Virus record (IMG/VR): IMGVR_UViG_3300009159_000048
Span: 1 to 64,000 of that record
DNA from: a virus
Length of the DNA: 64,000 nucleotides
Strand: one strand, 5' to 3'
A program made the position numbers and the translations under genes. Of the stretch, positions 17,243 to 19,310 are shown piece after piece (position 1 is the first letter of the stretch; every line of letters starts with the position of its first letter). The notes beneath the pieces are model-generated. The model was not told where the DNA came from and searched no databases. It saw nothing but the letters and a program-made list of their open reading frames with translations.

Positions 17243-18697
17243 TTAGTTAAGTTTAATAGCATTAATCTCATTGTAAAGAGCCTTCTTGTCTAACTCCATC
17301 ATCTTCATTATATCAAAGACTTTGTCGCTGAAGCCAGCTAAAGCAAAGACGTTTTGTTCTGGAAATTGAAGTGTAGAATATCCAGCCAAATCCCAAGAAT
17401 AAACATAAGGATTAGCTCCAAACTTACTCTTATAAGACTTAAACTCAGAAGCTGGTGAAGTATAACCAACCCAACCTTGCATATCAGAAAGGATTATAAT
17501 TCGGTCGTACTTTTTGTTAGCCTTTTGGAAAATAGAACGGAAGTTTGTACCACCACCAGAATATCTGAATGAGTTTCTAATAGTCATAACAGAATCCATT
17601 GGATTATAAGACTTATAATCAGCATTGGTAGCAAATGTCATAACATCACAGCTATTAGCCTTTGCAACAATAGATCCAAATAATGAATCTATTTCAGAAG
17701 GTCTACCACTCATAGAACCAGAAACGTCCATAACAAGTAATGTTTCACCATCAAATTTAGGAACATTCTGGACCGAAACTTCAAGTGCTCCATTAATAGC
17801 AACAAGAACGTCACGAACTTCTTTAGAAGAACCAATTTTGTTGATTTCTTCATAAGCGGTCGCAAAACGGAATGGTAAAACTCTAGATGATTTAATCATC
17901 TTTTCATCTACCAACATTTCACAAGCCGCCTTTACAGAAGAAGGTGATTGATTAATAATATTTCTTAGATTTCTAAGAAGTGCAAAATAACCAATCTTTC
18001 TTGTTGAAATAAGTTCAGACCAAGCATCTGACTTCAACTGAGCCAAATCTTGTTCGGAATCGGATTGTTGACCTACAGCAGATAACTTAGATTCCCAAGT
18101 ATCTGTTGATTTCAACTCACCTTTTATAAGAAGTTCAAGAGCTTCTTTATTTCTTTGAGTTGGAACAGGATGAACGATGTTAACAATGTCAACCAACTTA
18201 ACTTCTTTATTCTCTCCTTTATATTTGGACAATTGATATCCATCAAATTTATCAAAAGCTTTAGCAAATCCTTTCTTTAAGGAGTTTGGAAACTTTGGAT
18301 TTTCTTTATCGGTTTTATAAGCCAAATAGTAAGAAAGAATCTCAGTCATATCATCAACACGAACAACTACTTTGTTGTAAAAATCTTTACCCCACTCAGC
18401 TCCATTCAATTGTGAAGTTAATTCAGCAGCAAGTGCATGTGTCACAGAACGCATTCCGAATTTGTCTCTTGCAAAAATAGCAGATTTAGCAATAAATTCC
18501 TTGTCTTTAATCTTTTCTGATAATTTTTTCAAATCACTCAATGTTGTTTGAGCATTTTTGTAGAATTGGTCATTAACAAAAGAAGTTAGCAATAAAGATA
18601 CAAGAGCCAATTCATTTGACTGTGAATAAGCTTGACCACCGGCTAAGTTTTCGGTAAGTGTTTTTTGCTTTGGTAATGTTGTGTTAAATTTTGACAT
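17243..18697 (-). CDS. rsr: Ro60/TROVE-domain RNA-binding protein with C-terminal vWA domain
   Basis: NLAGGQAY, ARDKFGMRS, YQLSKY, TWE, ALLRNLRN and LPFRF TROVE motifs; vWA MIDAS DVSGSM, GGT and ILSDMQ. Confidence 0.92.
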   Translation of the reverse strand: MSKFNTTLPKQKTLTENLAGGQAYSQSNELALVSLLLTSFVNDQFYKNAQTTLSDLKKLSEKIKDKEFIAKSAIFARDKFGMRSVTHALAAELTSQLNGAEWGKDFYNKVVVRVDDMTEILSYYLAYKTDKENPKFPNSLKKGFAKAFDKFDGYQLSKYKGENKEVKLVDIVNIVHPVPTQRNKEALELLIKGELKSTDTWESKLSAVGQQSDSEQDLAQLKSDAWSELISTRKIGYFALLRNLRNIINQSPSSVKAACEMLVDEKMIKSSRVLPFRFATAYEEINKIGSSKEVRDVLVAINGALEVSVQNVPKFDGETLLVMDVSGSMSGRPSEIDSLFGSIVAKANSCDVMTFATNADYKSYNPMDSVMTIRNSFRYSGGGTNFRSIFQKANKKYDRIIILSDMQGWVGYTSPASEFKSYKSKFGANPYVYSWDLAGYSTLQFPEQNVFALAGFSDKVFDIMKMMELDKKALYNEINAIKLN

Positions 18698-18746
18698 AAC
18701 TTTTATTTATTTTTATTAATTTTATTTTTGTTCTTAAACTTTTTAT

Positions 18747-18789
18747 AAAAAAAAAGACCAGACTAACATCTCTGTTAAATCTGGTCTTT
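18747..18789 (-). terminator. Intrinsic terminator between the ncRNA cassette and the Ro60 gene
   Basis: Minus strand AAAGACCAGATTTAACA-GAGA-TGTTAGTCTGGTCTTTTTTTTT. Confidence 0.75.
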
Positions 18790-18799
18790 ATATAATGTT

Positions 18800-19020
18800 G
18801 CAAACAAGATAATTTAGCCTGAGCGTTACAAAGAATTCTCCCAAAAACTTTGCCGATAGTTAGTGACCATCTCACTTGACCCTTACGTGGTATCTTTCGG
18901 ACTTTTTCACCTCAGTCCATCTTTCAGGATCTTTTCGGTAGTCTTAGCTGTCGCCATAGACACTCTTCATCATAGTTGTAAATTTAAGTACGAAGTATCT
19001 CAAACTATCGCTATGTTTGC
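18800..19020 (-). ncRNA. Putative long Y-RNA-like ncRNA (~221 nt)
   Basis: Ends pair (GCAAACA/UGUUUGC, UAGUUUGAG/CUCAGGCUA, UUACAA/UUGUAA) around several internal hairpins; GC-richer than its surroundings; adjacent to Ro60. Confidence 0.6.
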
Positions 19021-19039
19021 TTAATAAACTATATATTGA

Positions 19040-19102
19040 CCAGAGTAAACTGATAAAGAGTGTTTTTTCAATCCGCGAAGTAACTCTCTATCTCACTACT
19101 GG
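19040..19102 (-). ncRNA. Putative short Y-RNA-like ncRNA (~63 nt core)
   Basis: CCAG-U-AGUGA-GAUAGAGAGU-[21 nt loop]-ACUCUUUAUC-AGU-UUACU-CUGG: a helix with a 1-nt 5' bulge and a 3-nt 3' bulge. Confidence 0.6.
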
Positions 19103-19122
19103 AGTAGTTTCTTTTATTAGTA

Positions 19123-19134
19123 TGTTAAAGAACG
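19123..19134 (-). promoter_or_regulatory. boxA-like antitermination element
   Basis: Minus strand CGTTCTTTAACA versus rrn boxA TGCTCTTTAACA, 20 nt 5' of the first ncRNA. Confidence 0.45.
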
Positions 19135-19265
19135 TTTTACTTTTAGTTGACAAAATTAAAAAGTTTAATCAACGTTGACAAAATTTTTAATTTTTTTTCT
19201 TAAAAGTAGATTATATATCAACCCTCAAAATTTCGATTTTTTCGAGGGTGGATTTTTTATAGCAC

Positions 19266-19292
19266 AAAAAAAGGAGAAAGTTTTTTCTCCTT
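19266..19292 (-). terminator. Intrinsic terminator
   Basis: Minus strand AAGGAGAAA-AAAC-TTTCTCCTTTTTTT after ORF 19311-19700. Confidence 0.6.
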
Positions 19293-19310
19293 AAATATTT
19301 TATTTTAATT

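What the first reader, a model, noticed from the sequence alone, without database searches (positions are those of the whole stretch)
17243..19250. Phage Ro60 locus with two related, non-canonical Y-RNA-like RNAs
Seen: in an otherwise gene-dense genome, ~550 nt upstream of the Ro60/TROVE gene is non-coding and holds two minus-strand stem-loop elements with the same architecture. Element 1 (19040-19102): CCAG-U-AGUGA-GAUAGAGAG-UUACUUCG...AACACUCUUUAUC-AGU-UUACU-CUGG. Element 2 (18800-19020): GCAAACA-U-AGCGA-UAGUUUGAG-AUACUUCG...AACGCUCAGGCUA-AAUUAU-CU-UGUUUGC. The outer stems differ in sequence yet both pair, while UAGYGA, GAG-W-UACUUCG and AACRCUC are kept. Known: Ro60 binds Y RNAs at a terminal helix with a single bulged nucleotide and a larger bulge on the opposite strand, and bacterial Y RNA genes usually lie next to rsr. 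Inference: these are phage Y-like RNAs of a family distinct from the tRNA-like YrlA (I see no cloverleaf), giving the phage its own Ro60 RNP for RNA decay/quality control or counter-defence.
Basis: partly seen in the sequence, partly recalled or inferred. Interest (0 to 1): 0.85.

Follow-up and report, generated by a model that had tools for sequence, protein, structure and literature searches.

The report
Two phage Y RNAs beside Ro60
Just upstream of its Ro60 gene, this huge uncultured phage encodes two conserved folded RNAs that share one docking stem. They are very probably the protein's Y-RNA partners: one is a bare hairpin, and the other carries a roughly 170-base knotted domain where known bacterial Y RNAs carry a tRNA look-alike.

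Summary
Window 17243-18697(-) encodes a Ro60/TROVE protein. The 613 nt upstream have no conserved reading frame. They hold two minus-strand RNAs, E1 (19040-19102) and E2 (18800-19020), followed by an intrinsic terminator (18747-18787).

Both RNAs have the same "handle": P1, a bulged U, the conserved 5-pair helix AGYGA/UWNCU, a 3-nt 3' bulge, a 9-bp P3, and the invariant motif UACUUCG.

A covariance model built from E1 finds this handle in every related huge-phage locus. It also finds it upstream of TROVE genes in crAss-like phages and in 30-odd MAG contigs, always on the gene's strand. In a 44-sequence alignment, 15 of 18 pairs show compensatory changes, and 0 of 500 shuffles reach the observed score.

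In relatives, the same handle encloses YrlA-type tRNA-like domains. These match Rfam YrlA significantly by E-value but below its gathering score. E1 and E2 themselves have no tRNA-like part and no Rfam match.

E2's insert is a covariation-supported multi-hairpin domain with a pseudoknot. I found it only in this phage clade.

A further conserved helix (P0) links E1's 3' strand to the terminator's 5' arm, which suggests a switch or a processing stem.

Verdict: a new structural variant of the known Ro60/Y-RNA system. Ro60 binding and function are inferred, not shown. The scan has reached the same reading on sister phage genomes.

The parts
17243..18697 (-). Ro60/TROVE protein gene (484 aa), with a vWA domain carrying a DxSxS MIDAS motif (DVSGS)
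   Evidence: Pfam TROVE E 2.6e-19 and a sub-threshold Ro60 vWA match. Full-length match to phage phiLo Ro60 structures 9KOP/9L5Y (E 5e-26), and matches to X. laevis, human and D. radiodurans Ro60.
19040..19102 (-). E1, a short Y-like RNA. P1 19099-19102/19040-19043; bulged U 19098; P2 19093-19097/19044-19048; 3' bulge AGU 19049-19051; P3 19084-19092/19052-19060; UUACUUCG 19076-19083; A-rich loop 19061-19075.
   Evidence: Sequence, fold, covariation in 14 loci and in 44 family members. Model R1 scores it 80.4 bits.
18800..19020 (-). E2, a long Y-like RNA. It has the same handle: P1 19014-19020/18800-18806; U 19013; P2 19008-19012/18807-18811; bulge AAU 18812-18814; P3 18999-19007/18815-18823; AUACUUCG 18991-18998. 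The handle encloses a ~170-nt cargo domain (18824-18990).
   Evidence: P1 covaries, with four fully compensated variants. P1 and P3 appear in the RNAalifold consensus. The element is present in all related loci.
18941..18961 (-). Cargo hairpin a4: a 4-bp stem (GUCU/AGAC) around GGC-GACA-GCU, with a GNRA-type loop
   Evidence: Per-sequence folds. The outer stem varies as GUCU/AGAC, GCUU/AAGC, GAUU/AAUC and GUUU/AAAC.
18908..18940 (-). Cargo helix UACC/GGUG enclosing a hairpin of variable length, often GAAA-capped in relatives
   Evidence: RNAalifold pairs 122-125/180-183, with CG to UA compensation in 4 of 12 sequences, and folds.
18855..18876 (-). Cargo hairpin a7 (AGUG 18873-18876 / CACU 18862-18865) and an H-type pseudoknot: loop GAUGG 18867-18871 pairs with CUAUC 18855-18859
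   Evidence: On alignment A4 (19 sequences) the hairpin is 96% paired and the pseudoknot 84-95%, with compensatory changes (GAUGA/UUAUC, UAUGG/CUAUA, GGCC/GGCC, GGUC/GACC). For the whole structure, 0-1 of 500 shuffles do as well.
18829..18852 (-). Cargo hairpin a9: CAAAG/CUUUG plus an inner UUY/GAA helix capped by GGGA (a GNRA loop in most relatives)
   Evidence: 92% paired, with 3 pairs changed on both sides.
18747..18787 (-). Intrinsic terminator between E2 and the Ro60 start: AGACCAGA...UCUGGUCU, an inner UAACA/UGUUA helix, and a U9 tract
   Evidence: Sequence, MFE fold, conserved in relatives. The simple scan missed it because of the long loop.
19028..19044 (-). 5' strand of long-range helix P0: UCUGGUC (which overlaps E1's P1/P2 3' strand) plus UAUAUAGU in the E1-E2 spacer
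   Evidence: It pairs with 18780-18796. Duplex energy is -12 to -20 kcal/mol in 13 of the 14 loci, z from -3.8 to -7.8 against shuffles. In the 14th, L012, the scored segment was cut short (-7.7, z -2.0), but an 11-bp contiguous pairing is seen. The AU-rich half differs in sequence between loci but still pairs.
18780..18796 (-). 3' strand of P0: AUUAUAUA plus GACCAGA, which is also the 5' arm of the terminator
   Evidence: With full P0 enforced the transcript folds at -87.2 kcal/mol, against -92.7 for E1-P1 plus the terminator.

Best explanation
The gap upstream of the phage Ro60 gene is a small non-coding RNA unit that makes two Y RNAs. Each RNA closes with the same handle: P1, a single bulged U, a sequence-conserved 5-pair helix with a non-canonical centre, a 3-nt bulge on the 3' strand, a 9-bp P3, and the single-stranded motif WUACUUCG at the junction. 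I infer that this handle docks onto the ring protein Ro60 encoded 50 nt after the terminator.

E1 is a bare handle with a short A-rich loop, comparable to YrlB or Yrn2. It would act as a gate or competitor for the Ro60 RNA-binding surface.

E2 mounts a ~170-nt compact domain on the handle, with several hairpins, GNRA loops and at least one pseudoknot. It sits where YrlA-type relatives mount a tRNA look-alike. I infer that it is the effector module that tethers Ro60 to another factor, by analogy with the Y RNA-PNPase tether of Deinococcus and phage phiLo.

Shown here: the sequences, conservation, covariation, synteny, and the link to YrlA-type RNAs through the shared handle. Inferred: transcription as discrete RNAs, Ro60 binding, and the cargo's partner. 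A conserved helix (P0) between E1's 3' strand and the terminator's 5' arm may additionally couple Ro60 expression or E2 processing to the folding state of E1.
For: The TROVE/Ro60 identity of the gene is secure. E1 and E2 are present with invariant UACUUCG in all 16 related IMG/VR and GenBank loci (71-87% aa identity). Three modules are present in a 49%-identical locus.

E1 covariation: 96% paired, 10 pairs with double changes, 0 of 500 shuffles as good, and slid controls 26-50% paired.

Model R1, built from E1 only, finds untrained hits upstream of TROVE in several places: L014 (three hits), crAss-like cr111_1 (E 3e-7), csAssE-Sib (E 1e-6), L052 and L055-57. It also gives 33 hits in 32 bacterial or MAG loci, all on the TROVE strand and upstream.

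Family alignment A7: 92.5% paired, 15 of 18 pairs with double changes across 193 cells, 0 of 500 shuffles as good. P1 and P3 vary freely, while AGUGA/UUUCU and UACUUCG stay fixed, as expected for a protein-binding site.

Handles with 58-79-nt inserts contain a T-arm, an acceptor-like hairpin and a D-arm. They match Rfam YrlA at 27-42 bits, with E down to 3e-6.

E2 cargo helices and the pseudoknot are supported by covariation. No conserved ORF is present.

Precedent in the literature: bacterial and phage Y RNAs lie within a few kb of Ro60 on the same strand, often two per locus and processed from one precursor (PMC4201824). Phage phiLo Ro60 binds two upstream Yrl RNAs and host PNPase (PMC12135203).
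Against: There are no expression, end-mapping or binding data for this uncultured phage. No Rfam Y_RNA or YrlA match to E1 or E2 at E<10. The bacterial GNCGAAN0-1G motif and the vertebrate GGUCCGA motif are not present at the handle; WUACUUCG stands in that position. R1 cannot span E2, so E2's membership rests on manual alignment and on P1/P3 covariation. No promoter was identified with confidence. No PNPase, RtcB or other known Ro60 partner gene is seen among the neighbours tested.
Confidence: 0.8

Rival explanations
1. The region is mainly a cis-acting leader of the Ro60 mRNA. Under this reading, E1, E2 and the terminator form an attenuator in which Ro60 binds its own leader. The choice between E1-P1 plus terminator and the P0 anti-terminator then sets how much Ro60 is made. 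No free Y RNAs are needed.
For: The terminator lies 50 nt before the ATG, with no recognisable promoter after it. The terminator's 5' arm GACCAGA is complementary to E1's 3' strand UCUGGUC, extended by a covarying AU-rich helix. The two conformers differ by only 5.5 kcal/mol. In L012 (UCAG/CUGA) and L035 (CCG/CGG), E1's P1 and both terminator arms changed in concert.
Against: This reading does not explain the same handle in arrays carrying tRNA-like cargo far from any terminator, nor E2's large conserved cargo. In L017, E1's P1 changed without the terminator changing. L033 and L049 lack a separate terminator hairpin. The terminator may simply be a degenerate copy of a handle (R1 8.8 bits), in which case the shared sequence reflects ancestry. 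This rival is compatible with the Y-RNA reading rather than exclusive of it; the confidence given is for it being the sole function.
Confidence: 0.1
2. The stems are processing or stability scaffolds, for example RNase III-type leader-trailer helices. They would excise or protect different cargo RNAs (tRNAs, tRNA mimics, the E2 domain) independently of Ro60. Linkage to Ro60 would then be only genomic.
For: In csAssE-Sib two handles enclose RNAs annotated as tRNA-Tyr and tRNA-Lys. Handles sit inside tRNA arrays. P0 is a 15-17-bp duplex flanking E2, like an rRNA processing stalk.
Against: E1 has no cargo, yet it is the best conserved member. The invariant bulges, the AGUGA/UUUCU helix and UACUUCG point to a specific protein site rather than generic dsRNA. 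Every fetched locus was chosen for having a TROVE gene, and all hits lie upstream on its strand. Handles with tRNA-like cargo match the Ro60-bound YrlA family.
Confidence: 0.06
3. The region is protein-coding, or the hairpins are chance features of AT-rich DNA.
For: Short ORFs of 53-63 aa exist in the region. E2's single-sequence fold is not exceptional (z = -1.6).
Against: No open frame is conserved in strand, frame or position across 17 loci. Indels are not multiples of three. Compensatory changes are far beyond the shuffled and slid controls.
Confidence: 0.01

Closest known systems
YrlA / YrlB, the bacterial and mycobacteriophage Y RNAs bound by Rsr (Ro60) (Chen et al. 2014, PMC4201824; Rfam RF02553)
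   Same: They are encoded just upstream of Ro60 on the same strand, usually two or more per locus. Their 5' and 3' ends form a long bulged stem, with a conserved motif at the top of the 5' strand. One RNA is a plain hairpin (YrlB-like, as E1 is) and one carries an effector module. In relatives of this locus the identical handle encloses a T-arm, an acceptor-like hairpin and a D-arm, and scores 27-42 bits on RF02553.
   Different: E1 and E2 give no RF02553 match at E<10. The motif is WUACUUCG, not GNCGAAN0-1G. The handle has two extra lower helices with a fixed bulged U and a 3-nt bulge. E2 carries a ~170-nt pseudoknotted domain with no T-loop or D-loop in place of the tRNA-like module.
Thermus phage phiLo Ro60 with Yrl1/Yrl2 (PMC12135203; PDB 9KOP, 9L5Y)
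   Same: It is a phage-encoded Ro60, and the best structural-database match of this protein (E 5e-26). Two Y-like RNAs lie directly upstream. In that system binding to Ro60 and to host PNPase was shown.
   Different: R1 finds no hit in the phiLo locus at E<=10, so the RNAs are not alike in sequence. The phiLo RNAs were picked by a CGAA motif and are small. None has a cargo like E2's.
Metazoan Y RNAs (Rfam RF00019) and the Ro60-binding bulged helix (Green 1998 and Stein 2005, as summarised in PMC12135203)
   Same: The topology matches: a terminal helix, a single bulged pyrimidine on the 5' strand, a few base pairs, a larger bulge on the 3' strand, an upper stem, and then a loop or effector region.
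   Different: There is no sequence similarity at the binding site and no Rfam match. The spacing is different (5 pairs between the bulges), and these RNAs are bacterial-type transcripts ending at an intrinsic terminator.

Membership tests
Ro60 / TROVE protein | TROVE domain followed by a vWA domain with a MIDAS motif, and full-length similarity to solved Ro60 rings | tested here: met
   PF05731 E 2.6e-19. The vWA_Ro60 match scores 23.6 bits, just under its cut-off. The alignment to 9KOP/9L5Y covers residues 12-476 and includes the DVSGS motif. Matches to 1YVP, 9NEN and 2NVO were also found.
Y RNA (functional class) | Encoded next to Ro60 on the same strand | tested here: met
   E2 ends 103 nt and E1 343 nt upstream of the ATG on the minus strand. 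The same arrangement holds in all related loci.
Y RNA (functional class) | The 5' and 3' ends pair into a conserved bulged stem | tested here: met
   P1, bulged U, P2, 3-nt bulge and P3, with 92-96% of cells paired and 10-15 covarying pairs.
Y RNA (functional class) | Physical association with Ro60 and stabilisation by it | not testable with these tools
   This needs RIP, EMSA or Northern blots. The phage is uncultured.
Bacterial Y RNA (Chen 2014) | GNCGAAN0-1G motif near the 5' end | tested here: not met
   The handle carries GWUACUUCG instead. cmscan aligned AUACUUCG of a relative to AUGCUUGG of the YrlA consensus, so the positions probably correspond but the motif differs.
YrlA (Rfam RF02553) | tRNA-like module (T-arm, acceptor-like stem, D-arm), and a score at or above the 69-bit gathering cut-off | tested here: not met
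   No match in the window or in the whole 94-kb record at E<=10. ARAGORN finds nothing. There is no T-loop motif in E1 or E2. Relatives sharing the handle reach only 27-42 bits.
RNase P RNA (considered for the E2 cargo because of GAAAAAGUCCG) | CR-I paired with CR-V to form P4, and an Rfam RNase P match | tested here: not met
   No RNase P hit at E<10. No CCGGCUU-type partner is present, and GUCCG is not invariant among relatives.

The most novel reading that the evidence does not exclude
E2's pseudoknotted ~170-240-nt cargo is a new functional RNA domain, restricted to this huge-phage clade. It would recruit a partner other than those engaged by tRNA-like Y RNAs, or act as a decoy for a host factor. 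In addition, the three mutually exclusive helices (E1-P1, P0, terminator) would form a Ro60-sensing attenuator that sets the RNA-to-protein ratio.
Probability: 0.25. Interest if true: 0.75.

Novelty: new variant of a known kind. Interest (0 to 1): 0.55.

Why it matters
Ro60-Y RNA particles are conserved from bacteria to humans, yet what the variable Y-RNA module does is known in very few cases, chiefly PNPase tethering. This locus belongs to a large, uncatalogued handle family found in huge phages, crAss-like phages and many environmental bacterial bins. One constant docking stem presents interchangeable cargo: nothing, tRNA mimics, whole tRNAs, or a large knotted domain. That gives a natural series for testing how the cargo directs Ro60. 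It also provides a covariance model that would annotate RNAs the Rfam YrlA model misses, and a candidate RNA switch controlling Ro60 synthesis.

Tried and rejected
- Rfam at gathering score on the window and on 17 loci found nothing. At E<10 on the region it gave only noise.
- ARAGORN found no tRNA or tmRNA in the window.
- The boxA-like CGTTCTTTAACA at 19123-19134, proposed by another first-reader note, occurs only in the window, L007/L015 and L014, and is not conserved.
- The UUACAA/UUGUAA helix said to close the cargo is not conserved in relatives.
- The resemblance of the E2 cargo to RNase P CR-I was rejected.
- The a7 hairpin as a D-arm was rejected, because GG is not conserved in its loop. 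The loop forms a pseudoknot instead.
- R1 with filters off does not span E2.
- R2, a model of the E2 3' half, finds only the window's own copy among 47 sources, and not even the diverged subtype-B E2 of L010, L029 and L034.
- An all-against-all column covariation scan of E2 was too noisy in this AU/GU-rich RNA. mafft-qinsi is not installed.
- The search for related loci with the 8-protein alignment A5 failed for lack of a conserved stretch.
- Relatives of the csAssE-Sib TROVE protein were all 97-99% identical and added no diversity.
- I did not resolve the full fold of the E2 5' half.
Full report
**What is there.** Window 17243-18697(-) encodes a 484-aa TROVE protein (Pfam PF05731, E 2.6e-19). 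Over its full length its best match among solved structures is the Ro60 of Thermus phage phiLo (9KOP/9L5Y, E 5e-26). It also matches frog, human and Deinococcus Ro60, and it keeps the vWA DxSxS motif. Neighbouring genes are a class I ribonucleotide reductase, a DNA methylase and a DnaB-type helicase. No PNPase or RtcB was seen among the ORFs tested.

The record is a 94-kb IMG/VR fragment estimated to be 17% complete. The nearest GenBank record is a 634-kb uncultured phage, LR745206.1, with 80% aa identity for Ro60. The genome is therefore that of a huge phage.

**The gap.** Positions 18698-19310 hold only ORFs of 63 aa or less. Across 17 related loci the longest open frames differ in strand, frame and position, so the region is non-coding.

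Read on the minus strand, it contains the following, in order:
- A conserved hairpin plus GATATATAA (19211-19251).
- E1 (19102-19040).
- A 19-nt spacer.
- E2 (19020-18800).
- An intrinsic terminator (18787-18747).
- The Ro60 ATG, 50 nt further on.

**The shared handle.** E1 and E2 both show the same architecture: P1, one bulged U, a 5-pair helix AGYGA/UWNCU, a 3-nt bulge on the 3' strand, a 9-bp P3, and then WUACUUCG.

All 16 related loci (71-87% aa identity for Ro60) carry both elements with an invariant UACUUCG. A 49%-identical locus (L014) carries three such modules.

In a 14-sequence E1 alignment, 96% of cells pair and 10 of 18 pairs have changes on both sides. None of 500 shuffles does as well, and slid registers give only 26-50% pairing.

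E2's P1 exists in four fully compensated versions: GCAAACA/UGUUUGC, GCAGACA/UGUCUGC, GAGGACA/UGUCCUC and ACAAAUA/UAUUUGU.

**A wide family.** I built covariance model R1 from E1 only. It recovers sequences that were not used in training:
- The three L014 modules.
- One hit upstream of TROVE in crAss-like cr111_1 (E 3e-7) and one in csAssE-Sib (E 1e-6).
- Hits in L052 and in the GC-rich L055-57.
- 33 hits in 32 bacterial or MAG contigs whose TROVE proteins are 40-55% identical (Saprospiraceae, Verrucomicrobiales, Sericytochromatia and others). Every one lies on the TROVE strand and upstream of the gene.

Rfam at gathering score finds only tRNAs in these contigs.

The 44-member alignment is 92.5% paired, with 15 of 18 pairs and 193 cells compensated, and 0 of 500 shuffles as good. 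This alignment was fitted to the model's structure, so its pair counts lean towards that structure.

P1 and P3 vary freely. AGUGA/UUUCU stays fixed, with a non-canonical centre in 32 of 43 sequences, and so does UACUUCG. That pattern is what a protein-binding site looks like.

**Link to YrlA.** Handles with 58-79-nt inserts contain a T-arm (GGUUCGAAUCC type), an acceptor-like hairpin and a D-arm, in the permuted order that defines YrlA. They match RF02553 at 26.8-41.6 bits, with E down to 3e-6, below the 69-bit cut-off.

In csAssE-Sib, two further handles enclose RNAs annotated as tRNA-Tyr and tRNA-Lys. Their acceptor stems start at the CG of UACUUCG.

E1 and E2 are therefore cargo variants within a YrlA-related handle family, not an unrelated family. 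They themselves have no tRNA-like part.

Chen et al. 2014 (PMC4201824) describe the same general layout for bacterial Y RNAs. These lie within a few kb of Ro60 on the same strand, and the three species characterised each have at least two. One is tRNA-like and one is a long hairpin, and in M. smegmatis both are processed from one precursor. The phiLo study shows a phage Ro60 binding two upstream RNAs and host PNPase (PMC12135203).

**The E2 cargo (18824-18990).** Covariation supports the following elements:
- A GNRA-capped hairpin a4 (18941-18961).
- A UACC/GGUG helix around a variable hairpin.
- Hairpin a7 (18862-18876), whose loop GAUGG forms an H-type pseudoknot with CUAUC (18855-18859).
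- A GNRA-capped hairpin a9 (18829-18852).

On 19 sequences these elements are 91% paired, with 8 pairs compensated and 0-1 of 500 shuffles as good. This holds even though two rows are misaligned by one column.

Relatives insert extra hairpins at fixed points. Model R2, built from this part, finds nothing in 46 other TROVE loci. I therefore found this cargo only in the huge-phage clade, where a diverged subtype B also exists (L010, L029, L034).

I did not resolve the whole fold.

**An extra helix, P0.** I followed a lead from earlier notes of this scan. E1's 3' strand plus the spacer (19028-19044) is complementary to the post-E2 spacer plus the terminator's 5' arm (18780-18796). The pairing is 8 + 7 bp around an AA/AA loop.

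The duplex is present in all 14 loci. In 13 of them its energy is -12 to -20 kcal/mol, with z from -3.8 to -7.8 against shuffles. In L012 the scored segment was cut short, but an 11-bp contiguous pairing is seen. Its AU-rich half differs in sequence between loci yet still pairs.

In the MFE fold the AU-rich half coexists with E1 and the terminator (-92.7 kcal/mol). Enforcing the GC half, which breaks E1's P1 and the terminator, costs only 5.5 kcal/mol.

L012 and L035 changed E1's P1 and both terminator arms in concert. L017 did not, and L033/L049 have no separate terminator.

P0 is real. Whether it is a Ro60-sensing attenuator, a processing stalk for E2, or the trace of a degenerate third handle (R1 8.8 bits on the terminator) is open.

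**Mechanism and confidence.** The most likely reading (0.8) is that E1 and E2 are the phage Ro60's Y RNAs, docking through the handle. E1 would be a cargo-less form. E2 would carry a novel effector domain. Binding, discrete transcripts and the biological role (RNA decay, quality control or counter-defence) are inferred by analogy only.

**Novelty.** Phage Ro60 and phage Y RNAs are already in print (PMC4201824, PMC7824862, PMC12135203). I found no paper or Rfam family describing this handle or E2's cargo. This is a new variant of a known kind.

Earlier notes of this scan reached the same reading on sister phage genomes. My tests here were made independently on this window.

Noticed in passing
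L021:2640-2920 (phage csAssE-Sib, OR575929.1): The two genes annotated tRNA-Tyr and tRNA-Lys directly upstream of its Ro60 gene are each enclosed by a complete Y-type handle (GGUGA ... UUACUUCG ... UUUCC). The acceptor stem starts at the CG of the motif. They may be Y RNAs with whole-tRNA cargo, or pre-tRNAs presented to Ro60.
   Followed up: partly
window 19211-19251 (-): An inverted repeat (CCACCCUCGAAAA...UUUUGAGGGUUG) is followed directly by GATATATAA, about 110 nt upstream of E1. It is conserved in nearly all related loci. A second conserved word, AAACTTTTT, lies about 50 nt upstream. These are candidate phage promoter or operator elements for the RNA unit.
   Followed up: partly
L138-L169 (genome contigs): The closest cellular-bin homologues of this Ro60 (40-55% aa; many Saprospiraceae, also Verrucomicrobiales and Sericytochromatia) mostly sit right after long tRNA arrays interleaved with handle RNAs. 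Many of these MAG contigs may therefore be phage or prophage DNA.
   Followed up: partly
L033 and L049 (IMG/VR relatives): In these relatives E2's own closing stem is followed directly by a U-run, with no separate terminator hairpin. The handle itself may serve as the terminator there.
   Followed up: no
window 18896-18904 (-): The E2 cargo contains AGUCCGA, 6 of 7 identical to the vertebrate Ro-binding word GGUCCGA and similar to RNase P CR-I. It is common but not invariant in relatives, so it may be coincidence.
   Followed up: partly
L019:2330-2700 (crAss-like cr111_1): Between the handle RNA and the gene before TROVE lies about 350 nt of unannotated, GC-richer sequence. It ends in a T-arm-like GGGUUCGAAUCCC followed by CACAGACCA and a terminator. 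This could be another large cargo or a tRNA-like RNA.
   Followed up: no
window 19123-19134 (-): CGTTCTTTAACA resembles rrn boxA, as another first-reader note says. It recurs only in L007/L015 and L014, so it is not a conserved feature of the unit.
   Followed up: yes
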